Source of the DNA: a virus
Reading direction: 5' to 3' (one strand)
DNA length: 64,000 nt
Virus record (IMG/VR): IMGVR_UViG_3300044712_000538
Coordinates: 11,940-75,939 of that record
Position numbers and translations under genes: made by a program. The notes under the pieces were generated by a model, which was not told where the DNA came from, searched no databases, and worked only from the letters and a program-made list of their open reading frames with translations. Of this stretch, positions 1 to 61,495 are shown piece by piece (positions within the stretch are counted from its first letter, which is position 1; every line of letters starts with the position of its first letter).

Positions 1-1
1 C

Positions 2-19123: not shown

Positions 19124-19127
19124 GCAT

Positions 19128-19811: not shown

Positions 19812-19812
19812 T

Positions 19813-21708: not shown

Positions 21709-21715
21709 GACTATC

Positions 21716-44173: not shown

Positions 44174-45847
44174 ATGGAACTGCCTGGCGTTGACTTTACC
44201 GTGCATATCGATCAATCCGCAAAGACAATGCGGCTTGCTGACAATGGCGTATATGCGCCGGGTGTTCAGTCTGGCATAAAAGGTTACTTCTCTGTCATTC
44301 AGCCGGATGGCATGGAGATTCCGGGAAGTGCGCTAAATCCGTCTGTTGTATGGACCGGACTTTCGCTTACCTACTATGTAATAGGCCTCCGGCTGGCCAT
44401 TGACGGGTGCATCCAGAATGGGGAGTATAAGGTTTCATACACGGTAAATTATCCCGGATACGACCCGACTACTGTTACCAAAACATTCGTCATTGACTTT
44501 CCGGCAATAACATTGGATGTTGTTCCGGATATGAACGTCTTCATCCCGGATCTGAAAGTAAGGGACAAGACAAACTATTCCAGGGACGGATATACGCACT
44601 CTATTTTGAGGAATTGGGCATATGAAATTCTCAATGTTGCCCCCAAGGTAGAGATCACCACTCCGCTCGACTATGTAGATCTTTCCTACAACGGCGAGTA
44701 TTATGATGCCTACTATAATGTTGATTTTGCAGCCGTTGTAACCTATGTGAGTGTTGCCAACTCTTGGCTGACGATAGCGGAATCGTTTTCTACATCACTC
44801 CAGACATTTGCCCAAAATCCCGGAAGCTTCGAGAATCTTATCAGCCGGCTTGAATGCCTGAAATCAAAGTATGATTCATATAAGTCTGGCTGCGTAGAAT
44901 CGGAGATATACCGCAATAAATATTCTTTCGCATCTTCCCTTTTCCAGCACCTTGTTGATCTGGTTAAAATAGGTGACGCATTTTCGTCTACCGTTCTGGA
45001 GAACTACATGCAGGCCACCGAGGAATGCTCCAGCGGGGCTTATGTTCCATCAAATACGGTCATTCCCCCTTTCGACATAAATGAAATTGTCGTTACCCAG
45101 GGGGATGTTGACATGCAGAATATTGGCGGTGAGGAAGGGATATACAAAGACTCTGTTGGCACAAATCCTAAGGTATTCAGGCTGAAAACATTGAAGACGG
45201 CTGGCCTTATGGTTATCACTCCAGTCGGCGATGTTCTTGAATTTGAATACAGAAACAAGGACATTTTCATCGAATTTGCTGATACATCAAGATCTTATGA
45301 GGCGGGAATGCTTGTGGAAAAGGCAATCGTCATTCCTACTGGAGGAGGACTTATGAATTTCCGTATAGGTACTACGCCTGGCGGGGAGGAACTTATCATG
45401 TCGCAGCCCATCCCTCAGAACGCGGTTAGGTCGTTTACCATTGACAGGTATCAGGAAGTCGCGCAAACTATATACTTTTCTGGAATTAATGCCGAAACGA
45501 AGATCATTGTCATTCTGGACAAGGTTTTGGGCGTATATTCTGATAGCGGATTTGATACAGGGAACGGGATGGGGTCCGGCGGGAAGCTTACGGTAAATGC
45601 GTCTACCGATGTATCTGTTCCGTTTGATACCGGATTTTATGTGAAGCATGCGGTTCTGGTGCCATCCGTTCCGTTGTCCGCGTTTAAGGTCGGCACGACA
45701 AATGGAGGAACGGAAATCATAAATGAAAGTTCAATCCCTGCAGGAGCATCGTTCCCCATAAAGATTGATACCTACTGCGAGATACCAAAAACCTTTTATT
45801 TCGGCGGCATAACCGGTCCGGTAGTTTTAATTGTCTACTATGAATAG
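44174..45847 (+). CDS. Structural protein (tail hub/fibre-attachment-like) with duplicated C-terminal beta-domain
   Basis: NGEYKVSYTV; two similar C-terminal units (FRIGTTPGGEELI / FKVGTTNGGTEII, each followed by T.YF.GI). Confidence 0.55.
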   Translation: MELPGVDFTVHIDQSAKTMRLADNGVYAPGVQSGIKGYFSVIQPDGMEIPGSALNPSVVWTGLSLTYYVIGLRLAIDGCIQNGEYKVSYTVNYPGYDPTTVTKTFVIDFPAITLDVVPDMNVFIPDLKVRDKTNYSRDGYTHSILRNWAYEILNVAPKVEITTPLDYVDLSYNGEYYDAYYNVDFAAVVTYVSVANSWLTIAESFSTSLQTFAQNPGSFENLISRLECLKSKYDSYKSGCVESEIYRNKYSFASSLFQHLVDLVKIGDAFSSTVLENYMQATEECSSGAYVPSNTVIPPFDINEIVVTQGDVDMQNIGGEEGIYKDSVGTNPKVFRLKTLKTAGLMVITPVGDVLEFEYRNKDIFIEFADTSRSYEAGMLVEKAIVIPTGGGLMNFRIGTTPGGEELIMSQPIPQNAVRSFTIDRYQEVAQTIYFSGINAETKIIVILDKVLGVYSDSGFDTGNGMGSGGKLTVNASTDVSVPFDTGFYVKHAVLVPSVPLSAFKVGTTNGGTEIINESSIPAGASFPIKIDTYCEIPKTFYFGGITGPVVLIVYYE

Positions 45848-47465
45848 GATTTTGTCTTTCCTGCTTTGTTTTCTTTTTGCCCAGGCTGCGGCACAGGATA
45901 TTAACGCGCAAGGCCTTATGGAGCCGAAAAGGCTATTCCCGAGGGAGAACTTTGCGCCTCCTATTGATACTGTAATCCCCCCTGCTCGGCTTGGAGAATT
46001 AAGGTCAAGGCCTACCGAAGGAAGGGTTTATATGTGCGTTTCATATGTTGGTCAAAGGTGGATCTCTATTTCCGGAGGAGGAGCCTTGCTGGTTGACAGT
46101 TCCATTTATTCGACCATCGCTCAGGCAAGGAAGATCGTCGGAGATTCTGTTGTAGCCGCTCATATATTTAACAATGGTGTAACGAGAGATCCATCAAACC
46201 CGAGAGTAATTCAGCTTGGCGGCGCTTTGACTAAATCGACTGTTATTGGAGAGGGAGCGGGTGTATATTCTACTACTTTCCGGGATAGCCTTATCACTAA
46301 TGATCGGGCTTTTTACATTCAGCTTCCATCCAGTTCGACACCTATGCGGTGGTGGGCTGGTATGGGGCCGCTCAGGGATACCACTACTGTTGTATTGGGA
46401 TGGAATGTCGGCCGATCCCTTTCCAGCCTGAACAGGTCTGGAGTTTTTATTGGGTCAAATGCTGGATCTGGTGCAACTTCCGGATTGGGTAATGCGGTTG
46501 TGGGATTTGAGGCAGGCCGGGACCTGACTACCGGCCAGGTGAATACATTTTTTGGATATAGGGCTGGACGGGGAATGACAAATGGATTAAACCATGTTGC
46601 CATCGGCCCTTCCGCTTTGCTTAGTTATACGTCCGGTACTTCTGCCTCTACAAATATGATGGCCTTTGGAACCGGATCTTTGCAGTTGGTTACATCCGGC
46701 GGCGCAACTACTGCTATCGGATATTCTTCAAATAGCAATGCAACTTCTTCTACTGAGAATACTTCTGTTGGGCACCAAGTTCAATGGCAAGCCCTGACAA
46801 CAACCGGCAACGTAGTGGTCGGTAAAGATGCGATGCGCGAAGGCCAGGTCCAGCTTTACAATACAATATTGGGGACGAGGGGGCTTGTTGGATCAGCCAA
46901 CTCAGTAAATCAGCCTACCGGGAATGTCGGTGCTGGATATGAGGTGATGCAGAACAATGATGGTGGTGACTACAATGTAATGCTTGGGTTTCAGGTAGGA
47001 AAAAACCTTGGAAGCGTTAGCAATAAGCTGGTCATTGACAATTTCGACAATACGGTAAATCCTTTCCTTTACGGGGACTTCTCCGCTGATAGCCTTAGGG
47101 TGAACGCTTATTTGTCCGTGGAAAAGGTCGATAGCAGCGAGGAGGCTCAAAACACGATTTGGATTACCCAATCTGGAAGATTTATGAAATCGGCTGCTCG
47201 CCCGAGGATTTTGAGCGGCCAGGCAACTCTTGACTTTCCGAGTACGGCATCTGCAAACCAGTCTGAATTGACCGTTACGGTTACTGGCGCTGCCGTTGGT
47301 GATGCCGTTTCTATTGGCGCTCCGGTGGGATCAATTCTTGCAAATGGCGTTTACACTGGATATGTGAGTGCGGCAGATACGGTAACAGTTGTTTTTTTCA
47401 ATGGAGCAAGCGGGCCTTCGCTGGACCCGGCAAGCGGGGTATTCAATGTTCGCGTCATTAAATAA
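45840..47465 (+). CDS. Signal-peptide-bearing fibre/adhesin-like protein with YadA-head-like repeats
   Basis: MNRILSFLLCFLFAQAAA|Q; repeated N.xxG..AG/AL units; C-terminal LDFPST...VTGAAVGD.V..G domain. Confidence 0.7.
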   Translation: MNRILSFLLCFLFAQAAAQDINAQGLMEPKRLFPRENFAPPIDTVIPPARLGELRSRPTEGRVYMCVSYVGQRWISISGGGALLVDSSIYSTIAQARKIVGDSVVAAHIFNNGVTRDPSNPRVIQLGGALTKSTVIGEGAGVYSTTFRDSLITNDRAFYIQLPSSSTPMRWWAGMGPLRDTTTVVLGWNVGRSLSSLNRSGVFIGSNAGSGATSGLGNAVVGFEAGRDLTTGQVNTFFGYRAGRGMTNGLNHVAIGPSALLSYTSGTSASTNMMAFGTGSLQLVTSGGATTAIGYSSNSNATSSTENTSVGHQVQWQALTTTGNVVVGKDAMREGQVQLYNTILGTRGLVGSANSVNQPTGNVGAGYEVMQNNDGGDYNVMLGFQVGKNLGSVSNKLVIDNFDNTVNPFLYGDFSADSLRVNAYLSVEKVDSSEEAQNTIWITQSGRFMKSAARPRILSGQATLDFPSTASANQSELTVTVTGAAVGDAVSIGAPVGSILANGVYTGYVSAADTVTVVFFNGASGPSLDPASGVFNVRVIK

Positions 47466-47471
47466 TGAATC

Positions 47472-47606
47472 ATGAAAAAGACAAATAAAAAGCCCAATCC
47501 AATGCTGTTTTTCGCAATAGTTTGGACCATTGTAATATTTGTCGTCCATGTTCTCCCGCAAAAAGCAGTCAATAGTATTTTTAGCTGGATCTCTGCTATT
47601 TTTTGA
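47472..47606 (+). CDS. Small membrane protein (44 aa, not in ORF track)
   Basis: MKKTNKKPNPMLFFAIVWTIVIFVVHVLPQKAVNSIFSWISAIF fills the gap between the two fibre genes. Confidence 0.55.
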   Translation: MKKTNKKPNPMLFFAIVWTIVIFVVHVLPQKAVNSIFSWISAIF

Positions 47607-47628
47607 TGGCAAACGAAACTCAATATAA

Positions 47629-50457
47629 ATGAAGCGGTTACTCAACATCATATTTTTCTTTTCGCTACTTCTTTCGTCCAGCGTGTTTGGGCAAAGTATT
47701 ATTCAGCCGGACAGGGCGGTAGTGAAGGAGAATTTCAGGCCGCCTCTTGATACGCTTATCGCTCCCGTATTTTTGGGAGAGCTGCGTACCAGGACTGCGG
47801 ACAGTTCAATCTACATATCAATTTCTTTGACCGCTCCGAAGAAATGGATAAAAGCATCTGGATCTGGAGGGGCAGATGGGAACAATTACCCAACGGCTTT
47901 AAGCTTCAATCAGTCAAATGACACCCTTACCCTTTCTTTATTTGGCAGGCCAAGCCTGAGTACCGCCATACCAAGGGCGGTATATGACGGGTCAGAAACA
48001 AAGATTGGTGCCGGAACAGGCGGGGTTATCGTAACCGGGCTCGGAACTACTCCAAGCCCGTATTTGATTTCAGTCCCGTCCTATAATGGATCAGAAACAA
48101 AGTTGTCTGCCGGGCCACGGATCTCTATTAGCGGGAGCGGCACTATACCTCAGCCATACCTTATTACCGCGGCCGATACGGACAGTTCAAGGTATTCGAC
48201 CATAGCGAGGGTGATGCAAAAGATTGACAGTCTGGCGGCTCTTGCCTCCATACGGTCTATTGTGAGCGGGGACAGTTCGATACTGGTTACGTCCGGCACC
48301 GGCCCTACAGTCGATCTCAGGTCGAGGGATTCCGCGATTGACATTGTGTATATCTCTTCCGATGGGTCAGTATTGTTTGAGCATTGGGGATCTGGTGATG
48401 GGGTGGATACGATTGATGTTCGGGCATTGGCCGGTGGTCCTGGCGGGGATAATTGGGGATCGCAGGCCGTTGTTAAGGATGGCACCCTTGTTGGGGATGG
48501 AACTACGATCAGCCCTCTTGGAGTTAATCTGGCTGCAATATCCGGGCTGGCCACCTATTATACGGCAGACGGAAAGTTTACCGGGAACAGATCCGTTGAC
48601 CTTGATGGGTTATATACCCAATACCTTGACACGGTTGCTGGCGTTTCTTCCATATTCAGGATCTCGCATGCTGGCATTCTGGTCCAGAAGAGCAATGCTC
48701 CTCCAATTGCCAGCGTACAGGACAGTTCTTTCATTTTCCAGTCTGGCGGCACTTATCTTTCCTCCACCACCAGAAAGCTTAATCTGGTTGCCCCGGATTC
48801 CATCTACGCCAGTTCCAGGATAACGCACCAAGGATACCTACCGATCCTTTCCCCCTTCCAGCTTACCACAAAAGCATATGTCGATAGCCTTCTTTCGACC
48901 ATAAACGGTTCCGAAACAAAGATCTCGGCCGGGGCAAATGTTACTGTTACCGGTGCCGGAACGACGGGAAGCCCATACATCATATCCGCGACGGCCGGTG
49001 GCGGCCCGGCTGGCGTTACCAGCGTAAACCTCACAATGCCATCGGCATTTACGGTCCTTGGCGGCCCCATCACTTCTGCCGGCACGTTTTCTGTAACCGC
49101 AAACGGAACGGCATCGGACTACATCGCGGGCAATGGTGCCATCCTCCCTTTCCCGGCCATCCCGACATATGACGGATCGGAAACGAAAATATCTGCAGGA
49201 CCGGGCATCGGTGTTACCGGATCTGGAACGACCGGCAGCCCATATGTCATAACCAATCTGTCTAGCGGGAGCGTGGTGAGCGTAGGGATGAGCGTTCCGG
49301 CAGGCCTATCGGTATCTCCCGCAACAATTACCACAAGTGGCACCTTTGCCATCACTACATCCCTGAATGGATTGGTTATAGGAACAGGATCGGGGTTCTC
49401 TACCGCGTCCGTGTCCGCTCCGCTTACCTATTCCGGCGGCAACCTTTCAATTACTCAGTCCAGTGCATCGACAAATGGTTGGATAACCAGTACCAACTTT
49501 CAGAATTGGGAATCCAAGCAGCAACCATTGCAGTTCCGGGATGAAAGCAACCCGGTTGGTGCCCTGGGTGTTGTCCGGAACGTAAACTTTGTCGGGGCCA
49601 GGATCGCGGCAAGCCTAACCGATGCCAATACCGTAACCGTTACGGTGTCTGATCCTACCCCGGACGGGAATAACTACCCCCTTTCTGTTTCAACGTCTGG
49701 AGGCCTTATTACCATCGCGCGGTCTGGATTATCCGATATTGTTGATTCCCTGACCACGACAAGGGTATTGGAGGGCAGCAGGCTATACTTTACAACTGAC
49801 CGGGCCCGGCAGTCCGTTTCTGCCAGTACGGGCCTCAGCTACAATGCCTCTACCGGTGTTTTTACCAACACATCCCCCGACCAGGTTGTTTCGATCTCCG
49901 GGACCAGCGGCATATCCGTTACCGGTTCATATCCCAACTTTACAATATCCGGATCTGGAATTACAGGCATATTTTCTCAGAAATCATCCATTACTCCCGA
50001 GGGATCTTTTAACATCGCCTATGTCAAATCCCTTGGCGGGACATATGAAATTTCAGACAAGGTATTGAAGCTTGGGAACGTGAATGTCGATCCGCACAGG
50101 ACAATAACGGTCAACGCAATGCTTTATGCGGATGCCTCATCCGTATTCCCTGGATTGTGGTATCATGTGGCAACCCTTCCTTCCGGGTATAGGCCCACCG
50201 GGATTGTAAACTTCTCGCTGGCCAATTACGTCCCGACCATAGGCAACCCGGCCACAACTCCAATTCGGGCCAATGACAATTCCACCGGCATAACCGGGAC
50301 CGCTGGCGCAGAATATAACTCCGCGAGCGGTTATATAGATCCAGATACTGGCTATATTTATGTCAAATTGGGAACGATAGTATCGACCCCTACAAGGTCT
50401 GGTGTTTCTACGGTCCTGATACCTATTGTTGTAACTTTTTTCAATAACAATAATTAA
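47629..50457 (+). CDS. Signal-peptide-bearing tail-fibre-like protein
   Basis: MKRLLNIIFFFSLLLSSSVFG|Q; 4x GSETK..AG....G.GT...PY.I; GVTSV/VVSVG knots; VLEGSRLYFTTDRAR..SYNASTG fibre motif; C-terminal VATLPSGYRP. Confidence 0.75.
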   Translation: MKRLLNIIFFFSLLLSSSVFGQSIIQPDRAVVKENFRPPLDTLIAPVFLGELRTRTADSSIYISISLTAPKKWIKASGSGGADGNNYPTALSFNQSNDTLTLSLFGRPSLSTAIPRAVYDGSETKIGAGTGGVIVTGLGTTPSPYLISVPSYNGSETKLSAGPRISISGSGTIPQPYLITAADTDSSRYSTIARVMQKIDSLAALASIRSIVSGDSSILVTSGTGPTVDLRSRDSAIDIVYISSDGSVLFEHWGSGDGVDTIDVRALAGGPGGDNWGSQAVVKDGTLVGDGTTISPLGVNLAAISGLATYYTADGKFTGNRSVDLDGLYTQYLDTVAGVSSIFRISHAGILVQKSNAPPIASVQDSSFIFQSGGTYLSSTTRKLNLVAPDSIYASSRITHQGYLPILSPFQLTTKAYVDSLLSTINGSETKISAGANVTVTGAGTTGSPYIISATAGGGPAGVTSVNLTMPSAFTVLGGPITSAGTFSVTANGTASDYIAGNGAILPFPAIPTYDGSETKISAGPGIGVTGSGTTGSPYVITNLSSGSVVSVGMSVPAGLSVSPATITTSGTFAITTSLNGLVIGTGSGFSTASVSAPLTYSGGNLSITQSSASTNGWITSTNFQNWESKQQPLQFRDESNPVGALGVVRNVNFVGARIAASLTDANTVTVTVSDPTPDGNNYPLSVSTSGGLITIARSGLSDIVDSLTTTRVLEGSRLYFTTDRARQSVSASTGLSYNASTGVFTNTSPDQVVSISGTSGISVTGSYPNFTISGSGITGIFSQKSSITPEGSFNIAYVKSLGGTYEISDKVLKLGNVNVDPHRTITVNAMLYADASSVFPGLWYHVATLPSGYRPTGIVNFSLANYVPTIGNPATTPIRANDNSTGITGTAGAEYNSASGYIDPDTGYIYVKLGTIVSTPTRSGVSTVLIPIVVTFFNNNN

Positions 50458-50469
50458 ACACACACACGA

Positions 50470-50715
50470 ATGAAAAGGAAAATTGCATTGATCGCGCTAC
50501 TCACGGCCCTATTCTCTTTTTCCCCCAAGCAGGAAGACGTAAAGTCATCCACGCAGGAAAAAAAGGTAAAGATTGAACTGACGGTAACCGGGTTGAATAC
50601 CGTTCTTACGGCCCTGCAGGATCGTCCAATGAAAGAGGTTGGCGGCCTTGTCCTTGATATTATCCAGCAAGCCGAGCCTCAGCTTAAAGACACCACATCC
50701 ACCAAAAAGAAATAA
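50470..50715 (+). CDS. Small exported protein (possible fibre chaperone)
   Basis: Signal-like MKRKIALIALLTALFSFS; IELTVTGLNTVLTALQDRP..EV..L...I.QQAEPQ. Confidence 0.6.
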   Translation: MKRKIALIALLTALFSFSPKQEDVKSSTQEKKVKIELTVTGLNTVLTALQDRPMKEVGGLVLDIIQQAEPQLKDTTSTKKK

Positions 50716-50727
50716 AAGCATTTAGGT

Positions 50728-53700
50728 ATGAAGCGAGCATTGTTCCTTGTTTTTTTACTGGTTTCAATGGTAGGAATGTCCCAGGTTCAAACTTATTTGA
50801 CCTGGGACTCTCCTCTTGGAAATTATATCCAGATAAACTCCAATCAGGGTATCCAGCGAAATGCCGGAAATACATTCGGATATGATCAGGGGGACGTTGA
50901 ATCTGTCCAAACCATATCCAGCGGCGAGTCTGTTACTTTTCAGATTGGTGCGCCCGGATCTCAGTTTTATATTGGCCTTATATCATCGAAGCCGAAGGGC
51001 CAAATCGTTGCAGATAATAACGAAGATGGAACCTGGGTGGGATCTGATGCCACGGTAAAATTTGGTCAGGTCTTTGGTGTTTTCGGGAATGACAGTACCA
51101 GCGCATTTGAAGACGGTATTACAAAGGGAACAAAATATAGGGCCACGATAAATCAATGGTTCCGGATTAATTATACGGGGTCTTCCATCCAGTACCAGTA
51201 TTCTACGGACAATGCCGCTACGTTCAACACCTTTTATACATCAACAAATACGGCATCTGGTTCATACTACGTCTACTTCTCTGCCTTTATTCTGAATGTT
51301 TCCCTGCAATCGATTTATAAAACTGGCGCAGGGGGCGGTAATCAGGCTCCTACCGTTTCAGCTACGGCCTCAAACAGTACCGTAACCTCCCCGGTAACAA
51401 CCAATACCCTCACGGCATCAGCATCCGATCCGGACGGATCAATTTCATCCTATTCTTGGGTCAAAATTTCCGGACCGACTGGCGGCAGCATAACATCGCC
51501 TACGGCCTCTTCGACCGGAATTACCGGCCTTACGAATGCCGGGACATATGTTTACCGTGTTACCGTAACCGACAATGGAGGAGCAACGGCAACTGCTGAT
51601 GTGGCTTTCTTGGTAACTGGAGCAACTCAGCAGCTTGTAAATGCTGGTCCAGATCAGGCGCTTCCCATTGGTACAACGTCTACTACCCTATCTGGGACCG
51701 CAGTAACCGCCAGCCAAACCGACCTAATTATATTTTTTGGAGAATCAAATGCATCCGGCCAGGCACCGAATACTTCTGCGACCAGCATCGAGCGGCTGCC
51801 AAGGAGTTCCGTTAAGATCTACAACAATTTCAATGGGCTGATCGAAAACCTTGATCTGGACCAGAACAATAATCTTGATGTATGCGGAATCCCGAGTACC
51901 CATGGTTGGGAAATTGGTCTGGCCGATGCGGTCGAGGCTGGACGGCTGAACAACCCTACATATCTTCTGAAAGTCGCATGCGCAGGCACCAGAATCGACC
52001 AATGGCTGAATGGCTCCGGAAACCCGTCTTGGAATGAGTTTGTACGGAAGGTGGATGACATGCTGGCCAAGATGAGTGCCCAGGGTGTCGTAAGCCCTAA
52101 TATTACAATGTGGATGAGCATCGGTCTTAACGATGCTTTGCAGGGTACTTCTACGGATAGCTTTTCAGCAAGGATCAATCGTTTTACCGCGGCGGTCCGG
52201 GCAAAATACGGCTCAGGAATCAGGGTCTACATGACGCAGTTCCATAGGTATAGGGCAGACTTTGGGGAAACGGCACCGAGCGCCAATGGCCATCCATACA
52301 ATGCGGTGATCGATGCGATTGATGCTGGAGATCCGCTACTGTCCATTGTGGAAACTTCGGACGCTCGGTGGATCGGGTATGGCGTTGATGATCCGGTGCA
52401 TTGGGACTACTCCGGCATGAAGCTTATTGCGGACCGGATGGTAACTGGAACAATCAATAACCGGCCCGGAAGTACTGTAACTTGGACAAAAGAGAGCGGG
52501 CCATCCGGTGGAACAATCGCCTCACCTAACCAGCTTGTTACGACAGTAAGCGGCCTGAATAGCGGCAATTATGTCTACCGGCTTACGTCCGGATCTCAAT
52601 TTGATGAGGTGACTATCGCGGTCGGCCAGAGCAGCTCCAACATCGTTACGACCATTATCCCGGAATCCGATCCAGAGATCATGCGACATTTGGGGGGTGC
52701 GGAAGATTGGTTCGGGCAGAACACGGTCGCGCTCCCAACCAATGCGAACAAGCAGCTTCCAAGATCAACTTATAAGCGTTTCAACTGGTATGAACTAGAA
52801 ACGGCCCAAGGGGTTTTCAACTGGCCGGAATTTGACCAGTTTTTCATAGACGCAATAAACAATGGCCAGACGGTTTCATGGGGAGTAATGACCATGAATG
52901 AAAACACCGGCGCTGGCCGTCCATTTGTGGGAGGAGCCTGGCTGAATTATCCGGTTTACCTACATAACCTAATGCAGGCTGAGGCGGTCAATAGCAGGCC
53001 ATGGCAGTACACCAGCGGAAGCACCAATTTTTGGGTCCCGAACTGGAATAGCCCGAACTTTCTTGCCCGGACGAAAGCCCTGTACGATTCCCTGTATAAC
53101 CGGATGAATACCAGAACACACAATGGGATTCTATTTAAAAACATCGTTGATGTGGTTGAGGTCCGGCATTATGGCCAATGGGGCGAGTGGCATGCTGTGA
53201 ATTACGCTTCTCAGCCAACTGATTACCCGACCGGCCGGCAACCGACCGTGGCAACGCTGGATTCTATCATCAGCTATATTGTCAAGGGGAATCCAGACTT
53301 GAAAACAACGATAATTATTTCGGCCTTTGATGCTTACCGACTGAGTAATGTATGGAACGATCCTGCCGTGGCAAGGTTTGCCCTCACCATCCAGAATCAA
53401 GCTGGTTTCGTTGGCTGGAGGAAGGACCATTGGGGCGATGCGGATCTTTCTTCGACATATGACTATAACTGGACCAATCTTAATGATCGCGGATATACCG
53501 CCCCAACTGTTTCAAATCAGCAACCGGGTGGCAGCTTTGTGGCTTTCGGTATTGATACGGCTACGATGAACCGCTGGAAGCTAGCGCCGATCACCGGGGA
53601 GCCCCCTGGATACCGGACCGAGGATACTAGGGGTGATATGGCCAATTTGCCCAAGGAGGTCCGTTTCTGGCGGGCGGCATCGTTCGGCAACGGTAATATG

Positions 53701-54729
53701 AGCCAGAGTTACGGCCTGCCGCAGCCATGGGGATTTGCTGAGGATAGCGTTCGGCTGGCCTCTAAGATCGCTGGCCACCGCCTGCAGATTGAGGGTGGCA
53801 CCATGACGCAGACCCTTGTTACCGGGGCCAGCTTCTCGATCACCCTGAACTGGAGGAACGCGGGCCTTACCCCGACATACGACAAATACGATGTGATGCT
53901 GGAACTTCGGAACGGCTCCGGACAAACCGTGTGGAGCGATACATCCTCCTTCCAGCCATACCTTTTCCTGCCAGCCAGCACGGCAACGCCTATTACCGAC
54001 AATTTCACCCTGACTTCGATCCCGGTAGGTGTGTATAATCTATTCATCCGGATCGTGGATAAGAAAGGGTATAGGACCCCGCTACCGCTGGCTATTCAGG
54101 GCCGGACAGGGGACGGAAGTTACCAGATCCGGTCGGGCGTTCAGGTCGCGGCTGGTGGCACCAATCAGGCACCTACGGTTGCGATCAGCGGTACGGCCAC
54201 CGTAACCCTTCCAGCTACCAGTACCAGCCTGACGGCATCCGCTACTGACCCGGACGGGACCATATCCTCCTATTCCTGGACGCAAGTGAGCGGGCCCAAT
54301 ACGGCCACAATCGGATCTCCCTCAGCCGCGACAACGACCCTTACTGGCCTTGTGCAGGGCAGCTACAATTTCCAGGTCCTTGTTACGGACAATGGCGGCC
54401 TTACCGCGACCGCGAATAGGGTAGTAACCGTCCTGCCGGCAGCCACGGTTAATGCTGGCCGGGACAAAACGGTTTATGTCAACAAGGTGGTCCTGCAGGG
54501 CACCTATCCGGCAAATACGTCGAGCGTGGCATGGACCAAAATATCTGGCCCGGTTGCCGGGACGATTGTAGATCCTGCTTCGGCCAAGACGGACGTTACC
54601 GGACTGACACCGGGAACATATGTCTTCCGGCTGACGGCAACGGTTGGAGGTCAATCATTCACCGATGACATAACCATTACGGTATCCAATTCGAGAAACC
54701 GGAGGGTTAGGTCCATAAATGTTCAATAA
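50728..54729 (+). CDS. Exported multidomain carbohydrate-active protein: PKD repeats + SGNH/SASA-type esterase + GH-A-like TIM barrel with DUF4832-like domain
   Basis: MKRALFLVFLLVSMVGMS|Q; GESNASG, IGLNDA, DDPVHW; RFNWYELE..GVFNW, YGQWGEWH, PITGEP; W.KISGP/VTDNGG PKD units. Confidence 0.75.
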   Translation: MKRALFLVFLLVSMVGMSQVQTYLTWDSPLGNYIQINSNQGIQRNAGNTFGYDQGDVESVQTISSGESVTFQIGAPGSQFYIGLISSKPKGQIVADNNEDGTWVGSDATVKFGQVFGVFGNDSTSAFEDGITKGTKYRATINQWFRINYTGSSIQYQYSTDNAATFNTFYTSTNTASGSYYVYFSAFILNVSLQSIYKTGAGGGNQAPTVSATASNSTVTSPVTTNTLTASASDPDGSISSYSWVKISGPTGGSITSPTASSTGITGLTNAGTYVYRVTVTDNGGATATADVAFLVTGATQQLVNAGPDQALPIGTTSTTLSGTAVTASQTDLIIFFGESNASGQAPNTSATSIERLPRSSVKIYNNFNGLIENLDLDQNNNLDVCGIPSTHGWEIGLADAVEAGRLNNPTYLLKVACAGTRIDQWLNGSGNPSWNEFVRKVDDMLAKMSAQGVVSPNITMWMSIGLNDALQGTSTDSFSARINRFTAAVRAKYGSGIRVYMTQFHRYRADFGETAPSANGHPYNAVIDAIDAGDPLLSIVETSDARWIGYGVDDPVHWDYSGMKLIADRMVTGTINNRPGSTVTWTKESGPSGGTIASPNQLVTTVSGLNSGNYVYRLTSGSQFDEVTIAVGQSSSNIVTTIIPESDPEIMRHLGGAEDWFGQNTVALPTNANKQLPRSTYKRFNWYELETAQGVFNWPEFDQFFIDAINNGQTVSWGVMTMNENTGAGRPFVGGAWLNYPVYLHNLMQAEAVNSRPWQYTSGSTNFWVPNWNSPNFLARTKALYDSLYNRMNTRTHNGILFKNIVDVVEVRHYGQWGEWHAVNYASQPTDYPTGRQPTVATLDSIISYIVKGNPDLKTTIIISAFDAYRLSNVWNDPAVARFALTIQNQAGFVGWRKDHWGDADLSSTYDYNWTNLNDRGYTAPTVSNQQPGGSFVAFGIDTATMNRWKLAPITGEPPGYRTEDTRGDMANLPKEVRFWRAASFGNGNMSQSYGLPQPWGFAEDSVRLASKIAGHRLQIEGGTMTQTLVTGASFSITLNWRNAGLTPTYDKYDVMLELRNGSGQTVWSDTSSFQPYLFLPASTATPITDNFTLTSIPVGVYNLFIRIVDKKGYRTPLPLAIQGRTGDGSYQIRSGVQVAAGGTNQAPTVAISGTATVTLPATSTSLTASATDPDGTISSYSWTQVSGPNTATIGSPSAATTTLTGLVQGSYNFQVLVTDNGGLTATANRVVTVLPAATVNAGRDKTVYVNKVVLQGTYPANTSSVAWTKISGPVAGTIVDPASAKTDVTGLTPGTYVFRLTATVGGQSFTDDITITVSNSRNRRVRSINVQ

Positions 54730-55755: not shown

Positions 55756-57750
55756 ATGGCTCTTGCAGAAAAGACAGTCCGTTTTGTTTTCCCCGTAAGG
55801 AAAACTACACTCGCCACGAACACCACCCTTGCCACGGCAACGGAGCATGATTTTGGCGATATAACTATCCAGTTACCTGAATCGTCGAAAACATTCAGGA
55901 GTGTTGTGGTTCGGCTCACGCACCGGATGGGTACAACCACGACTGCAAGAAGGTTGGATGGAGTTCGGATTGGTGTCCAGATTGATGCGGTTTCCCCTGC
56001 GGGTAATGACGCAACAGGAACGGGTGTTGCTGCAACAGGTGATCCATACTCCCATGTGATAGACTACGATGCAACCGCCCACTTTGTAAATAACTATTCC
56101 GGGACTAGTCATACATTTGGTGTCACTTGTCGATACGAGCATGATGTTGCTGACGTTGTTTATCAGATCACATGCGAGGTGTTCATCACCTATACTTACC
56201 AAGACACAAGCGCAGATCAGATAAAAACAGTATCGCTTCCGCTCGAAGGTTTGACAACATGGGCTACAATAACCGCAAACACAAACATTCGCGGAACTGC
56301 TGCGGCTGGACAGATACCAGCACTGGATACATATCTTCCGGAAGGAGGGAAAGTTTATCGACAAATATGGCTTGAAATATCTGCGACCGATGGAGGTGCT
56401 GCTACAACAGACTTCAATATAAACTATTCCATTTCAGGAAGCACGACGGAAGTTGGCGCAACAATCGAACAGGGTCTTAACGGTTCTGCAAGGTGGTATG
56501 ACCTTTGGAACATTACAAGCGTAATCAATACTGCGTCTGTGCAAGACTTTCAGGCATGGAGTTCACTTGCTAACACGTTTGAGGGGCTGCATGCCGTTCT
56601 TCATATCACATACCAATTCAACCTTGCGTCCACGACGAGGGTGATGAACTCGGTAAGGCTGGCTATCAATTCCGATTTCGGAATGATTATGGGTACTGCA
56701 TCCACGGCAAGGCAAGTATATGACAATGAACTTGTAATCAACGAGCCGGGAACGATCACCATAAAACAAAGCGGAGCCCAGGTTTTTTACGGTATGACAT
56801 CCGGCACCAACGTAAGCCTTCTTTTCGAGGGAGCCGGTAAAGCTGGCGGGGCGCAAACAACATTTAGAACGTATGTTGGAAATGCGCTTACTCATGCTGG
56901 AAGCAGATGCATTTTACATAGGCTTGACCTTGCGCACGGAGGAACTGCGCTGACGCTGGCAAGGGGAAGAAATGTTATCAGAATGTCGGTGTACTCTTCG
57001 TCTGCAACAAATGCCGTTCAGGGATTGTCTGGTTGGTATTATATCAACTACGAATCGGATGTATCTTCTGCTGGTATAGGCGCTCACAACAGGAGTGTTA
57101 TGTATCATCTTGGTGGCGGGTTTAACCAAAACGTTTCCGGTGCGGTCAATCAGGAGTTTGCTACCGCCAACCAAAGAACTCCGATTATTTCGCAAGCCGA
57201 TTACTACCTGTCTGGCGTTGCGTGGGAGTTCCATAGCTTTACCTCTACGGCAAACTTCGTGAACCTGTATGCCGAAGTGCTTTCTGGAGAAAGCGGTAAG
57301 GGGGATGGATGGGCTAAAGTAAAATCATTCTCGCATGGTCAACAGGCTGAGGTTGGCTGGATTACCAATATTTGCGATGATGAAAATGATTTTGTCAGAA
57401 AGTACCCGAACGATCTGTACCGACCGAATAGGAGGAATATTCTTCTGAACATTGAAACTGCAAGGATTTATCGGTATGTAGGTAATGCAATTCTCCATCC
57501 GTCTATCAATGTATGGCTAACGATGCATAACATTACCGGCACCGTTGCGGCCAGCGTATCAGGCTCCGGTGGTAGTACGGTTAATATATCACTTATTTCT
57601 GCTGATAGGAACATAGTCCTTGACAAGACTAGCCGCGTAGGCAACGGTGCATATTCATTCACATGGTATGATCTGACCGAACAGGTGTTCACCGAAGCCA
57701 GGGAGAACGGGGTTCTGATCGGAAGGTCAGATACCTCAACTCCTGTATAG
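55756..57750 (+). CDS. Putative structural/tail protein
   Basis: 664-aa beta-rich Thr/Ser/Gly ORF in the tail cluster, no signal peptide. Confidence 0.55.
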   Translation: MALAEKTVRFVFPVRKTTLATNTTLATATEHDFGDITIQLPESSKTFRSVVVRLTHRMGTTTTARRLDGVRIGVQIDAVSPAGNDATGTGVAATGDPYSHVIDYDATAHFVNNYSGTSHTFGVTCRYEHDVADVVYQITCEVFITYTYQDTSADQIKTVSLPLEGLTTWATITANTNIRGTAAAGQIPALDTYLPEGGKVYRQIWLEISATDGGAATTDFNINYSISGSTTEVGATIEQGLNGSARWYDLWNITSVINTASVQDFQAWSSLANTFEGLHAVLHITYQFNLASTTRVMNSVRLAINSDFGMIMGTASTARQVYDNELVINEPGTITIKQSGAQVFYGMTSGTNVSLLFEGAGKAGGAQTTFRTYVGNALTHAGSRCILHRLDLAHGGTALTLARGRNVIRMSVYSSSATNAVQGLSGWYYINYESDVSSAGIGAHNRSVMYHLGGGFNQNVSGAVNQEFATANQRTPIISQADYYLSGVAWEFHSFTSTANFVNLYAEVLSGESGKGDGWAKVKSFSHGQQAEVGWITNICDDENDFVRKYPNDLYRPNRRNILLNIETARIYRYVGNAILHPSINVWLTMHNITGTVAASVSGSGGSTVNISLISADRNIVLDKTSRVGNGAYSFTWYDLTEQVFTEARENGVLIGRSDTSTPV

Positions 57751-60156
57751 ATGGCGATATTCGACATACAATTACGGGACAACAGGGTTAATCTTCCGTT
57801 TGATTCGGATGCAGATACGTTTTGCACAAACTTTGGCATTACCGATAATGCTATCAAGGCAAACATCAATTTTCTTGTAAAGGCCTTGAAGTTTTATGGC
57901 CTTTGGTCGCTGGCTGATGCAATTTATCCTATTGCCGGAGGCACTGCCGCTACGCATAAGGGTAATCTGAAAAATCCACTAGATACCGACGCTGCTTTCC
58001 GAATGACATTTTTTGGAGGGTGGACACATGCTGCAACAGGCATGACACCCAATGGAACTACCGGGTATGCAAATACGCATTACACCCCATCGGTTCAGCG
58101 GTCAAACGGATTTATGAGTGCGGGTGCTTATAGCCGCACCAATATAGATTCAGATACTCCCCTATTTTCAGCAAACTCAAACTTTAACGGCCAGTTTACT
58201 GAAATAACGCCAAGAGCGTTCAATGCTGCATATCTGGCCACATCATCTGCAACTCACGTTCAGATCGCATGTACCGACAGTCGAGGGTGGTTCCTTACAT
58301 CAAGAGAAGGATCTACTGATATGTGGGGACAGGTTGATCAAACACAACTTGGAAGTTCGTATGCTACCGCAGTCCCAACCGTAAGCATATATTTTGGAGC
58401 GAGGAACGTAAACGGAAGTTCCGTTGATAGGTATTCTACAAGAGAAATTGCATTTGGATGGTTTGGCGCACCACTCACTGAGGCGCAAGGCTTAACTCTT
58501 CGCAGGATTGTTCAGGCTTATCAAACCAGAATGGGTCGGCAGATTGGTACTGCTGACTATATGTACGAACTGGATGCATTCGAGCTGGCCTTATATGTCA
58601 TGGGCGGGACTAGTGCCCGGTGGAACTTCACGAAGACACCATATGCGGTTGCCGGTAACAATAACATGGTTGCTGGACCTACTGTTGGAAACCTTTCGCA
58701 AACAGATCCGGCTACCGGATGGACGCTAATCACAAATGGTGGTGAGTGGGAGCCATACTTAGGATCGTTCCAGGCTTTGAACAATGGAGAAGGTGGATCA
58801 AGCGCCGGGTCACCTACTTATACCACGTTCAGCGCAGAAGAATTGCAAGGTGGATTTCTTCAAGCGGGACATACAACGGAAAGCGGCGGTAAGTATCCTT
58901 TTGAGTTTACTAATCTTCCGGCTGGAACATATAAGCTATACTTAATTGGATCTATAAAATCAACGATTAACGGGAACGTGCCCAATGGTCGTTTTAAGGT
59001 AAAGTTTGGCTCCGCTGCTCCTACTACCCAAGGTATTGCTCAACAGAGCAACTATACTACTCCTGCTCTTGTTTTTGAAGGAACGATAGCGGAAGGAGAA
59101 AAAATCGAGTTTGGTCCATATACACTTACTGAAAGTAATGGTGATGCGACGATATGTAACTGTCTTTTAATTGAGAAGATTGAAACGACAAACATTACCA
59201 AGAATCCTGGAATTGGCCAGGTGGTAATTACTGGTATTGCTCCAGCTATTTCAAACCCACGGTTGGTCAATCCGGGCATTGGTGCCGTGGCGGTTACGGG
59301 TATCGTTCCGGGAATAGCCCAATCACAGGTTTTATCTCCGGGGATCGGGGATGTTCTGGTTACTGGTATTGCTCCGCTGCTTTCAAGGGCAATTACCCCC
59401 GGAATAGGTGCCGTTCAGGTTACCGGTCTTGCTCCAGCTTTGATCCGGGCAATAACTCCCGGCATTGGCGAAGTGGCCGTTGGCGGTATTTCTCCGTCCC
59501 TTATCCTTGGCGTATCCCCCGGTGCCGGGTCCGTGTTGCTTACCGGCATCGCTCCGGGTATTTCGATCTCGGACAACAAGATCTTGAATCCGGGATTATC
59601 ACAAATAGCCATAACCGGTCTGGTGCCGGTCATTGACAAGGCTTTGGCTCCCGGTATCGGATCTATCGTTGTGGGGGGCATATCACCGGCTTTGGGCCTT
59701 TCCATAACTCCGGGTGCGGCAGCGGTCATCGTAACTGGTCTGGCTCCGACCGTTGGCCTGCCGGGATCTATCAATCCGGGGATCGCTCAAGTTCTTGTTT
59801 CCGGCCTGAATCCGGGCATATCGGTTACGAATAACGTATATGTATATCCCGGAATATCAAGCATATTGCTGGATGGATATGCGCCGGCACTCGATCTCCT
59901 TATCAATCCGGGTCCGTCCGGCATTCTGGTGGATGGTATTGCCCCGCTGATCATCCTGCCAAGAATCATAGAGCCTGGGCTTTCGCAGATACTTATTACT
60001 GGCATCCAGCCGGGCGTTACGGTGGTCCCGTTCGGTGCCAAAATAAAGGTGTGGGATGGCGTTCAATTCAAATCTGGATTGTTAAAAGTGTGGAGGGATG
60101 GCCAGTTTAAAGACGGGACTCTTTGGCGTTATATGGGGGATGGAAATTTCCAGTAA
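57751..60156 (+). CDS. Putative fibre protein with lectin-like N-terminus and 13 C-terminal PG repeats
   Basis: LVKALKFYGLW..AIYPIAGGTA..HK.NLKNP..GGWTH..G..PNGTTGYANT; repeats xPGIGxVxVTGIAP. Confidence 0.65.
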   Translation: MAIFDIQLRDNRVNLPFDSDADTFCTNFGITDNAIKANINFLVKALKFYGLWSLADAIYPIAGGTAATHKGNLKNPLDTDAAFRMTFFGGWTHAATGMTPNGTTGYANTHYTPSVQRSNGFMSAGAYSRTNIDSDTPLFSANSNFNGQFTEITPRAFNAAYLATSSATHVQIACTDSRGWFLTSREGSTDMWGQVDQTQLGSSYATAVPTVSIYFGARNVNGSSVDRYSTREIAFGWFGAPLTEAQGLTLRRIVQAYQTRMGRQIGTADYMYELDAFELALYVMGGTSARWNFTKTPYAVAGNNNMVAGPTVGNLSQTDPATGWTLITNGGEWEPYLGSFQALNNGEGGSSAGSPTYTTFSAEELQGGFLQAGHTTESGGKYPFEFTNLPAGTYKLYLIGSIKSTINGNVPNGRFKVKFGSAAPTTQGIAQQSNYTTPALVFEGTIAEGEKIEFGPYTLTESNGDATICNCLLIEKIETTNITKNPGIGQVVITGIAPAISNPRLVNPGIGAVAVTGIVPGIAQSQVLSPGIGDVLVTGIAPLLSRAITPGIGAVQVTGLAPALIRAITPGIGEVAVGGISPSLILGVSPGAGSVLLTGIAPGISISDNKILNPGLSQIAITGLVPVIDKALAPGIGSIVVGGISPALGLSITPGAAAVIVTGLAPTVGLPGSINPGIAQVLVSGLNPGISVTNNVYVYPGISSILLDGYAPALDLLINPGPSGILVDGIAPLIILPRIIEPGLSQILITGIQPGVTVVPFGAKIKVWDGVQFKSGLLKVWRDGQFKDGTLWRYMGDGNFQ
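59203..60030 (+). repeat. About 13 tandem 20-24-aa coding repeats (PGIGxVxVTGxAP)
   Basis: Visible in the translation of 57751-60156. Confidence 0.8.
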
Positions 60157-60573: not shown

Positions 60574-60848
60574 TTACAAAAATGCTCATTCTCGTTCTCT
60601 GCTGGCTGGTAGGATATGCAATCTCAGCCCTCTTGTCTTGGTACACATCCAAGGACGGATTCTCCGTGAAGGATCTGCTCCCGCAAATGATTCTGTCCGT
60701 AGTTATCGGCATTGTCGCAAGCTTCTTTGTGGCAAAGATTGACCTGAACGACTGGATCGTGTGGGCGGCGTTCATCTTCTTCGGGTTTATCTCCGAAACC
60801 ATCATCAAGTTTATCGCTAAAAAAGCCAAGCAAATCAACGGAGAATGA
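60570..60848 (+). CDS. Holin-like membrane protein
   Basis: Three TM segments, basic C-terminus. Confidence 0.6.
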   Translation: MITKMLILVLCWLVGYAISALLSWYTSKDGFSVKDLLPQMILSVVIGIVASFFVAKIDLNDWIVWAAFIFFGFISETIIKFIAKKAKQINGE

Positions 60849-61495
60849 AAACGATCCTGACTGGCATACTATTCATCTTTCTGGCATCGTCCTGCGTTAC
60901 GGCCTCCAAGGTCGATAGATGGCTGGACCGGCACCCGCTGCATGAAGCAACCCGGTGCGCCGATAAATTCCCCTGCGTTACGACCGGGATTGATGTGAAG
61001 GTGGATAGTACGGCCTACAAAAAGGCTCTGGATAGCGTCCGGGTAATGATCGATGCCCTGGATTCGCTTATCCGCTCCAGGAACAACATCCCTGTCGTTC
61101 CTGCCCGGCCGGTGCCCGATGAAGATCCGGTTGCGGTCCCGGTGGTATATGCAGATGGCATAGAGCCCCTGCTCAGGGAGCTGGATGCCCTCAGAAGGCT
61201 GGTATCCCGCATACCGGCCGTTACCATTGACACGACCAGAAAGATTAAGGATTCGGCTGAAACAAAGAAGCTTCTTTTAACAGTAGATCTATACAAAGAC
61301 TCAACAAATTATTTTAGGGGACAGGCCAACACTTTTGAAAAGCAGGCTACGGTCGCAAAATCAAAGCTGAGAAGCCTATGGACTGGTATTATTTTCATCC
61401 TGCTATTGCTGATCGTTATTGCGGTCTTCATCATGCGGGCGAAGGGAGTTTTATCTCTAATACCGTTCAACCTATTCAGATCAAAAAAAGTATAA
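60845..61495 (+). CDS. Lipoprotein with C-terminal TM helix (unimolecular spanin-like)
   Basis: Lipobox FLASS|C, coiled coil, C-terminal LWTGIIFILLLLIVIAVFIM. Confidence 0.65.
   Translation: MKTILTGILFIFLASSCVTASKVDRWLDRHPLHEATRCADKFPCVTTGIDVKVDSTAYKKALDSVRVMIDALDSLIRSRNNIPVVPARPVPDEDPVAVPVVYADGIEPLLRELDALRRLVSRIPAVTIDTTRKIKDSAETKKLLLTVDLYKDSTNYFRGQANTFEKQATVAKSKLRSLWTGIIFILLLLIVIAVFIMRAKGVLSLIPFNLFRSKKV

What the first reader, a model, noticed from the sequence alone, without database searches (positions are those of the whole stretch)
45840..54729. Tail-fibre/depolymerase module that appears Sec-exported and O-glycosylated by the host
Seen: four genes in the virion cluster (45840, 47629, 50470, 50728) begin with signal peptides, three with Gln right after the predicted cleavage site (AAA|Q, VFG|Q, GMS|Q). 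The bodies of the first two carry fibre motifs (YadA-like rolls, GSETK repeats, EG.RLYFT..RAR). They are rich in D-(S/T)-(A/I/L/V/M/T): I count 6 in the 45840 protein, 9 in 47629 (plus 4 DSS) and 5 in 50728, against essentially none in the equally Ser/Thr-rich, signal-less proteins at 55756 and 57751. The lipoprotein at 60845 has 6 in 216 aa. Established: this motif is the sequon of the Bacteroidota general O-glycosylation system, which acts on extracytoplasmic proteins; N-terminal Gln after signal peptidase I cleavage is a Bacteroidota hallmark; tailed-phage virion proteins normally fold and assemble in the cytoplasm. Inference: fibres are exported to the periplasm, glycosylated and attached to virions at or after lysis (host-glycan camouflage, late arming), or they are displayed on the infected cell.
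Basis: partly seen in the sequence, partly recalled or inferred. Interest (0 to 1): 0.88.

Follow-up and report, generated by a model that had tools for sequence, protein, structure and literature searches.

The report
Phage tail fibres carrying export signals
A complete 76-kb short-tailed phage of soil Bacteroidota puts its host's own secretion signal on its fibre and sugar-degrading genes, so these host-recognition parts probably mature outside the cytoplasm, a route not described for tailed phages.

Summary
Four consecutive late genes (45840, 47629, 50470, 50728) start with Sec-type signal peptides, and three have Gln at +1. The window is most of a complete 75.9-kb crAss-like podophage from rhizosphere metagenomes.

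The leaders look functional. Every relative found of 47629 (2) and 50728 (7) keeps one. The leader sequence drifts freely, and conservation starts exactly at the Gln.

The sequon counts reproduce exactly.
- The exported set has 31 sequons against 14.0 expected (p=6e-5).
- Non-exported proteins have 35 against 49.1.
- Five control motifs are flat.
- The excess sits in 45840, 47629, a spanin-like lipoprotein and an early exported protein. It is absent from 50728.
- Signal-bearing fibres of eight other phage loci show no overall excess.

Export is well supported. Glycosylation is plausible but unproven.

Virion attachment gets indirect support from a cultured relative. Cellulophaga phage phi18:3 gp085-087 all carry Q-rule leaders, and the GenBank record calls them structural proteins on MS/MS evidence. 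They are its only fibre-sized candidates.

The main rival is export without virion attachment. The enzyme 50728 fits this best, because its mature N-terminus is a lectin-like domain.

This scan has flagged the same pattern before in many other phage genomes. I found no paper describing it.

The parts
44174..45847 (+). Signal-less 557-aa protein that opens the fibre module. It is conserved in the related 77-kb phage and its stop overlaps the start of 45840.
   Evidence: 44% identity to L014 8670-10031. No leader. No Pfam or PHROG assignment.
45840..47465 (+). 541-aa fibre-like protein. Leader aa 1-19 (or 1-24), N-module about aa 25-85 shared with 47629, fibre repeats about aa 180-450, C-terminal beta-sandwich aa 454-541.
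   Evidence: N-module 35% identical to 47629. 6 sequons vs 1.64 expected.
47199..47462 (+). C-terminal 88-aa beta-sandwich tip domain of 45840. It belongs to a very large family with no Pfam model and almost always sits at the extreme C-terminus.
   Evidence: 4833 clusters at E<=1e-3. Half of the top hits carry leaders, 90% of those with Q. Model pLDDT 95. Weak fold matches to C-terminal domains of phage tailspikes. No Pfam hit, including the T9SS sorting domain.
47472..47606 (+). Candidate 44-aa ORF with one hydrophobic helix, in the gap between the two fibre genes.
   Evidence: ORF only, not otherwise tested.
47629..50457 (+). 942-aa fibre protein. Leader aa 1-21 (VFG|Q), shared N-module, GSETK repeats, EGSRLYFT..RAR segment, C-terminal tip.
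   Evidence: Relatives P0081 and P0082 keep a leader. The tip is 49% identical to a signal-less fibre on L015. 9 sequons vs 4.63, 3 of them kept in all three relatives.
50470..50715 (+). 81-aa protein with an N-terminal hydrophobic leader followed by Pro. Either a signal-anchor or a small periplasmic protein. Absent from the relative L014.
50728..54729 (+). 1333-aa exported multi-domain glycan enzyme. Order: leader aa 1-18 (GMS|Q), lectin-like jelly roll 19-210, Ig domain, SASA/SGNH esterase 331-510, glycosidase-like region ending in DUF4832 (1016-1113), then PKD domains.
   Evidence: Pfam hits. GESN / GLND / DPVH esterase motifs read. N-domain model pLDDT 89, matching SPRY and L-type lectins. 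65% identity to L014 and 47% to L016. All relatives keep a leader. 5 sequons vs 5.56.
55756..60156 (+). Two signal-less Ser/Thr-rich proteins (664 and 801 aa) with no sequon. They serve as the internal contrast.
   Evidence: 0 vs 2.64 and 0 vs 1.96 expected. 55756 has a relative on L016.
60845..61495 (+). 216-aa lipoprotein next to holin-like genes, probably a spanin. It is a surely periplasmic protein and is also sequon-rich.
   Evidence: Leader ending ASS|C. Weak C-terminal coiled-coil/TM-like hit. 6 sequons vs 1.06, p=0.001.

Best explanation
These genes are the host-recognition and glycan-degrading module of a lytic crAss-like podophage of a soil Bacteroidota host. The module is made as Sec pre-proteins.

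Proposed steps:
1. The proteins cross the inner membrane unfolded.
2. Signal peptidase I cuts before Gln, and the host cyclase probably converts that Gln to pyroglutamate.
3. The proteins fold and trimerise in the periplasm.
4. The fibre-like proteins 45840 and 47629 are probably O-glycosylated there at D-(S/T)-(A/I/L/V/M/T) sites.
5. They meet the cytoplasmic particles only when the holin opens the inner membrane. The fibre-like proteins then dock by their shared mature N-terminal module.
6. The enzyme 50728 either rides along or is released free.

Shown here: the leaders and their conservation, the fibre and enzyme homology, the position in the module, and the sequon excess. Inferred: cleavage, glycosylation and docking at lysis.
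For: Phage and host.
- Complete phage with terminal repeats.
- TerL, portal, capsid and muzzle-like genes.
- The portal matches only phages of Flavobacteriia.

Leaders.
- They are present in four adjacent genes.
- They are kept in all 2 relatives of 47629 and all 7 of 50728. Sequence conservation starts at +1 Gln.

Virion role.
- Both fibre bodies are homologous to phage fibres.
- The tip of 47629 also occurs on a signal-less fibre.
- The two fibre-like proteins share an N-module directly after the leader. In phi40:1 two signal-less virion fibres likewise share an N-terminus.
- In the held stretch of the related 77-kb phage (22.7 kb of the contig), the module holds only the 44174-like protein, the leader-bearing fibre and the leader-bearing enzyme before the lysis genes.
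- In Cellulophaga phage phi18:3, gp085, gp086 and gp087 each have a Q-rule leader. Each is annotated 'structural protein ... experimental MS/MS proteomics', and no other fibre-sized structural protein is annotated in the parts of the record examined, bases 1-66965 of 71443.
- phi19:3 repeats the pattern, with one mature N-module on different bodies.
- Leader-bearing giant fibre-like ORFs recur in six other kinds of IMG/VR phage contig.

Sequons.
- The excess is specific to the exported set.
- Sites are kept through substitutions within the motif.
Against: - No experiment shows cleavage, glycosylation or virion presence for this phage.
- MS/MS detection in phi18:3 does not show that the leader is removed, and co-purification is possible.
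- Fibres of other relatives have no leader: Maribacter phage Panino, Cellulophaga phi40:1 (MS/MS-verified), Flavobacterium elemo phages and crAss001.
- This phage also has signal-less candidates (44174, 55756, 57751) that could be its real fibres.
- The mature N-terminus of 50728 is a lectin-like domain with no recognisable docking domain, like an ordinary secreted glycan enzyme.
- The sequon excess is absent from 50728, from phi18:3 gp085-087 and from other leader-bearing phage fibres.
Confidence: 0.5

Rival explanations
1. The proteins are exported but are not virion parts. They would act in the periplasm, on the surface of the infected cell, or free after lysis. The enzyme would strip or deacetylate the host's surface glycan. 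The fibre-like proteins would bind or mask receptors, so that progeny are not lost on debris or on infected cells. Alternatively they are displayed like cellular fibre adhesins. The true virion fibres would then be 44174, 55756 and 57751.
For: - 50728 is built like a secreted glycan enzyme, with a lectin-like N-domain directly after the leader.
- Signal-less fibre-sized proteins exist in the same module.
- Many chromosomal and metagenomic Bacteroidota proteins combine a Q-rule leader with the same fibre repeats. One also has a T9SS sorting domain (P0054), so a cellular class of exported fibre-like proteins exists.
- Bdellovibrio MAT fibres are phage-fibre-like, have a signal peptide followed by a conserved N-domain, and are surface-displayed (PMC10769870).
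- P. gingivalis phages encode Q-rule proteins that have been read as host-envelope modifiers (PMC10367356).
Against: - In phi18:3 the leader-bearing proteins are recorded in the virion proteome and are the only fibre candidates.
- The related 77-kb phage shows neither 55756 nor 57751 in the stretch held.
- The receptor-binding tip of 47629 has no second copy in this genome.
- No T9SS sorting domain or lipobox is present that would take the proteins beyond the periplasm.
Confidence: 0.33
2. The hydrophobic N-termini are not used for export during infection. They would be uncleaved anchors or assembly helices, or would be ignored because the phage shuts down Sec. The fibres would then assemble in the cytoplasm as usual.
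For: Every tailed-phage fibre studied so far assembles in the cytoplasm (established knowledge). MS/MS detection in phi18:3 fits this reading equally well.
Against: - The leaders have full n-h-c anatomy, with small residues at -3/-1 and Gln at +1 in 3 of the 4 genes here and in every relative.
- Sequence conservation starts exactly at that Gln. This is the pattern of a removed peptide.
- The sequon excess tracks the leader-bearing set and the spanin-like lipoprotein.
Confidence: 0.07
3. This rival concerns the glycosylation claim only. The proteins would be exported, but the sequon excess would be a by-product of fibre repeat structure or shared ancestry, and the proteins would not be meaningfully glycosylated.
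For: - There is no excess in 50728.
- The phi18:3 fibres are sequon-poor.
- There is no overall excess in eight other phage loci, and two are well below expectation: L005 7 vs 19.7 and L011 6 vs 13.4.
- Several 47629 sites lie in conserved motifs such as PPLDT.
Against: - The excess is specific to the forward motif. Five control motifs are flat.
- It also appears in two unrelated exported proteins, the lipoprotein 60845 and the early 281-aa protein.
- Among homologous fibre proteins, leader-bearing ones run at 1.37 times expectation and leader-less ones at 0.69.
- Three sites persist through changes at both variable positions.
Confidence: 0.3

Closest known systems
Cellulophaga phage phi18:3 (Pachyviridae, Baltivirus; KC821620.1) gp085, gp086, gp087, and their phi19:3 counterparts
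   Same: - Podophage of Bacteroidota with a distantly related portal (24% identity).
- Consecutive fibre-module genes next to the lysis genes.
- Each has a Sec leader with Gln at +1, and the mature N-modules are reused on different bodies.
- The GenBank record marks all three as structural proteins from MS/MS.
   Different: - No detectable sequence similarity to the window's proteins.
- Sequon-poor, 3 vs 9.5 expected.
- No enzyme domains found by Pfam.
- As far as I could find, the leaders are not discussed in any paper.
Bdellovibrio bacteriovorus mosaic adhesive trimer (MAT) fibres (PMC10769870)
   Same: Phage-tail-fibre-like trimers built as signal peptide, then a conserved N-domain, then fibre, then a variable adhesive tip. 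They are exported and work outside the cytoplasm.
   Different: MAT fibres are cellular proteins of a predatory proteobacterium and are displayed on its own surface. Many carry the S74 chaperone domain, which Pfam does not find here. Homology of the N-domains was not tested.
Classical phage tailspikes and depolymerases with esterase activity, and tail fibres of cultured relatives (phi40:1 gp085/gp087, crAss001 gp22-26)
   Same: Same position in the genome, same fibre repeats and tip-type domains, and a glycan-modifying catalytic domain on a host-recognition protein.
   Different: Those proteins have no signal peptide and assemble in the cytoplasm. Here every fibre-like or enzyme gene in the 45840-54729 block has one.
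Q-rule signal-peptide genes of Porphyromonas gingivalis prophages (PMC10367356)
   Same: Phage genes of Bacteroidota whose predicted cleavage exposes Gln. The authors read this as adaptation to the host's secretion system.
   Different: Those are genes of unknown function, proposed to modify the host envelope. They are not fibre or depolymerase genes in the virion module.

Membership tests
Sec / signal peptidase I substrates obeying the Bacteroidota Q-rule | Basic n-region, uncharged hydrophobic core, small residues at -3/-1, Gln at +1 | tested here: met
   Met for 45840, 47629 and 50728. 50470 has Pro after the leader, so cleavage is doubtful. A heuristic filter was used, not SignalP.
Sec / signal peptidase I substrates obeying the Bacteroidota Q-rule | The leader is kept as a feature while its sequence drifts, and the mature sequence is conserved from +1 | tested here: met
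   47629 family 3 of 3. 50728 family all members, counting this protein and its 7 relatives.
Sec / signal peptidase I substrates obeying the Bacteroidota Q-rule | Cleavage and a pyroglutamate N-terminus in the mature protein | not testable with these tools
   Needs N-terminal proteomics.
Substrates of the Bacteroidota general O-glycosylation system | D-(S/T)-(A/I/L/V/M/T) sequons on an extracytoplasmic protein | tested here: met
   6, 9 and 5 sequons. The extracytoplasmic location is inferred from the leaders.
Substrates of the Bacteroidota general O-glycosylation system | Sequon excess over composition, taken as a sign of selection | tested here: inconclusive
   Significant for 45840, 47629 and 60845 and for the pooled exported set. 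Absent in 50728 and in other leader-bearing phage fibres.
Substrates of the Bacteroidota general O-glycosylation system | Glycan actually attached, and a host that has the system | not testable with these tools
   The host is unknown. Bacteroidota is inferred from relatives and the Q-rule. No glycoproteomics.
Phage tail fibre / tailspike (virion receptor-binding protein) | Homology to fibre or tailspike families, and position in the structural module | tested here: met
   PHROG 6002, 23837 and 4636. Annotated tail fibres. The PF13884-family fibre segment. Position between the capsid and lysis genes.
Phage tail fibre / tailspike (virion receptor-binding protein) | Physical presence on the virion through an N-terminal docking domain | not testable with these tools
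   The only evidence is the analogy with the phi18:3 MS/MS annotation. The shared N-module has no recognised family.
Type IX secretion cargo | C-terminal sorting domain (PF18962 / TIGR04183 or type B) | tested here: not met
   No hit in Pfam or NCBIfam for any of the proteins, nor at E<=10 on the C-terminal 100-120 aa. The 45840 C-domain also occurs on signal-less fibres and in tandem copies.
SASA / SGNH carbohydrate esterase (domain of 50728) | Pfam PF03629 above its cut-off, with catalytic Ser, Asn and Asp-x-x-His blocks | tested here: met
   25.9 bits vs a cut-off of 24.8. GESN, GLND and DPVH were read and not checked against an alignment of characterised enzymes.
Bdellovibrio MAT superfamily | Conserved ~130-aa N-domain after the signal peptide, often with an S74 chaperone | not tested
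   The architecture is alike. No sequence or fold comparison with MAT N-domains was made. No S74 domain was found by Pfam.

The most novel reading that the evidence does not exclude
In several lineages of Bacteroidota phages the tail fibres are true secretory proteins. They would be exported by Sec, capped with pyroglutamate, in some lineages decorated with the host's own O-glycan, and folded in the periplasm. They would be added to fibreless cytoplasmic particles only in the moments after the holin opens the membrane. That would be a two-compartment assembly pathway for tailed phages, giving virions that carry host-type glycans.
Probability: 0.4. Interest if true: 0.9.

Novelty: new variant of a known kind. 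Interest (0 to 1): 0.72.

Why it matters
Tailed-phage particles are taken to be built wholly in the cytoplasm. A conserved secretion signal on host-recognition proteins would mean that part of the virion matures in another compartment. There it could gain pyroglutamate capping and host-type O-glycans. Either could change stability, immune or lectin recognition, and host range.

It would also affect how receptor-binding proteins of Bacteroidota phages are annotated, expressed and engineered. Cytoplasmic expression in E. coli would give the wrong product.

The question is directly testable, because a cultured pair already exists: Cellulophaga baltica with phage phi18:3.

Tried and rejected
- T9SS cargo reading for 45840. 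The conserved C-terminal 86 aa looked like a sorting domain. It has no Pfam or NCBIfam match. It also occurs on signal-less phage-type fibres and in tandem copies, and it resembles tailspike C-terminal domains weakly. Rejected.
- Shared N-module as a divergent PF26696 'phage tail-like trimerisation' domain. The ESM Atlas gave only leads under 0.9. hhalign gave E=0.18. An HMM built from the bacterial domain hit nothing. Not supported.
- Disulfide formation as the reason for export. The exported proteins have 0-2 Cys each. Rejected.
- Complex prediction of 44174 with the N-module of 47629 returned 'no answer'. It gives no evidence either way.
- No close relative of 47629, nor of the L005 leader-bearing protein, is in the cultured-phage collection.
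- ESM Atlas on 44174 gave no usable hit.
- Promoter and terminator scans gave nothing above shuffles near the block.
- Sequencing-run search listed no RNA holder.
- The Holmfeldt 2013 paper behind the phi18:3 proteomics could not be opened. The MS/MS claim therefore rests on the GenBank notes.
- Literature searches found no description of signal-bearing tail fibres.
Full report
**What the window is.** The window is bases 11940-75939 of a complete 75,939-bp virus record with direct terminal repeats.
- It encodes a large terminase, a portal, an SU10-type capsid protein and a 1165-aa protein with weak crassvirus muzzle matches. It also encodes a 4444-aa methylase/helicase giant.
- The portal matches only podophages of Flavobacteriia, at 22-25% identity: Maribacter, Flavobacterium, Cellulophaga and Tenacibaculum phages.
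- The DNA occurs in rhizosphere metagenomes.
- Gene order is ring and muzzle genes, ejection-like genes, terminase, portal, scaffold, capsid, 43212 and 44174. Then come the four genes of the finding, three small genes, 55756, 57751, two holin-like genes, a lipoprotein and a lysin-like gene.
- The finding therefore lies in the fibre module, between the capsid and the lysis genes, on the late strand. The stop of 44174 overlaps the start of 45840, and base 54729 ends 50728 and starts the next gene.

**Signal peptides.** 45840, 47629 and 50728 have a basic n-region, an uncharged hydrophobic core and small residues at -3/-1, followed by Gln.
- 50470 has a comparable leader followed by Pro, so it may stay anchored.
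- A simple filter flags 8 of 84 ORFs in the genome. These are the four genes above, the lipoprotein 60845, an early 281-aa protein, a small membrane protein and one antisense ORF.
- The stronger evidence is comparative. The two relatives of 47629 (47-53% identity) and all relatives of 50728 (37-85% identity) each keep a leader of unrelated sequence. Three of the 50728 relatives lie on contigs of 74-78 kb.
- In every case the alignment becomes conserved exactly at the Gln. That is the pattern expected of a peptide that is cut off. I put export at about 0.9.

**What the proteins are.**
- 45840 (541 aa) consists of a leader, a ~60-aa module shared with 47629 (35% identity), fibre repeats and an 88-aa C-terminal beta-sandwich. 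The repeats hit PHROG tail-spike and virion families and annotated tail fibres.
- The C-terminal domain belongs to a family of at least 4833 clusters with no Pfam model. It nearly always sits at the extreme C-terminus, on both leader-bearing and phage-type leader-less proteins. Its model (pLDDT 95) weakly resembles C-terminal domains of phage tailspikes.
- 47629 (942 aa) has GSETK repeats and the EGSRLYFT..RAR segment found in many phage fibres. Its tip is 49% identical to that of a signal-less fibre on another contig.
- 50728 (1333 aa) is an enzyme. After the leader comes a ConA/SPRY-like lectin jelly roll (pLDDT 89), then an Ig domain and a SASA/SGNH esterase with its catalytic blocks. A glycosidase-like region ending in DUF4832 and PKD domains follow.
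- It is 65% identical to its counterpart in the related 77-kb phage, while the portal, capsid and terminase are 33-42% identical.

**Sequons.**
- Against shuffles, 45840 (6 vs 1.64) and the lipoprotein (6 vs 1.06) stand out. 47629 is marginal (9 vs 4.63) and 50728 is at expectation.
- Pooled, the exported proteins have 31 vs 14.0 and the others 35 vs 49.1. The rate-ratio p is 8e-6, and five control motifs show nothing.
- In the 47629 family, three sites are kept in all three proteins through changes inside the motif.
- Among homologous fibre proteins, leader-bearing ones run at 1.37 times expectation and leader-less ones at 0.69.
- The excess is not general. Leader-bearing fibre-like proteins of eight other phage loci total 72 vs 84.6, and the phi18:3 proteins total 3 vs 9.5.
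- Glycosylation of 45840 and 47629 is therefore likely if the host has the system, but selection for it is specific to this lineage.

**Are they on the virion?** The sequence cannot say, but relatives help.
- Panino, phi40:1 (fibres verified by MS/MS), the elemo phages and crAss001 have leader-less fibres.
- Cellulophaga phage phi18:3 has three consecutive genes upstream of its lysis genes: gp085, gp086 and gp087. Each has a Q-rule leader, and each is annotated as a structural protein on experimental MS/MS evidence.
- No other fibre-sized structural protein is annotated in bases 1-66965 of that 71,443-bp genome. The last 4.5 kb lie mostly within the giant structural gene gp123 and were not listed.
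- phi19:3 repeats this, with the same mature N-module on different bodies.
- In the stretch held of the related 77-kb phage, the module holds only the 44174-like protein, the leader-bearing fibre and the leader-bearing enzyme.
- Giant leader-bearing fibre-like ORFs follow the capsid or tail genes in six other kinds of IMG/VR contig.

**Verdict.** I favour periplasmic maturation followed by docking at lysis (0.5). Export without virion attachment comes next (0.33) and fits the enzyme best. Leaders that are not used for export are least likely (0.07).

**Known comparators and novelty.** P. gingivalis phage genes with Q-rule leaders have been noted, but as envelope modifiers of unknown function. 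Bdellovibrio MAT fibres show the same signal-plus-N-domain-plus-fibre design in a cellular protein. I found no paper on leader-bearing tail fibres.

This scan has flagged the same pattern in many other phage genomes, and earlier agents also named phi18:3. I had reached phi18:3 on my own before reading those notes.

Noticed in passing
window 47472-47606 (+): A 44-aa ORF with one hydrophobic helix fills most of the 163-bp gap between the two fibre genes. If real, the block would hold five membrane-targeted products.
   Followed up: partly
window 19080-35050 (+): The 4444-aa giant protein and the two proteins before it (243 and 631 aa) contain no cysteine at all. Terminase and muzzle have 12-13. 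This would suit proteins that are ejected unfolded through the periplasm.
   Followed up: no
window 50728-54729 vs L014 12672-16652: The exported enzyme is 65% identical between the two related phages, whereas portal, capsid and terminase are 33-42% identical. This points to recent exchange or unusually strong constraint.
   Followed up: no
window 60845-61495 (+): A lipoprotein next to holin-like genes has a weak C-terminal coiled-coil/TM-like match, so it is probably a single-component spanin. It has the highest sequon density in the genome (6 in 216 aa).
   Followed up: partly
genome 11734-12579 (-), i.e. window 1-640 and 205 bases upstream: An early-region 281-aa protein has a Q-rule leader whose junction (TA|QGLMTP) resembles that of 45840 (NA|QGLMEP). 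It has 4 sequons vs 0.96 expected.
   Followed up: partly
window 47199-47462 and proteins P0171-P0317: The 88-aa C-terminal domain of 45840 defines a very large family (4833 clusters) with no Pfam model. It occurs on both Bacteroidota exported proteins and phage-type fibres, sometimes in tandem.
   Followed up: partly
L005 8225-18802, L011 3686-9521: Some other phages' leader-bearing giant fibre proteins are well below sequon expectation (7 vs 19.7 and 6 vs 13.4). Lineages may differ between using and avoiding host glycosylation.
   Followed up: no
L016 1937-9630: In a related contig the 50728-like enzyme keeps its leader, while the adjacent GSETK-repeat fibre (1073 aa) has a leader-less N-terminus of a different kind. 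The leader plus N-module therefore seems to be a swappable unit.
   Followed up: partly
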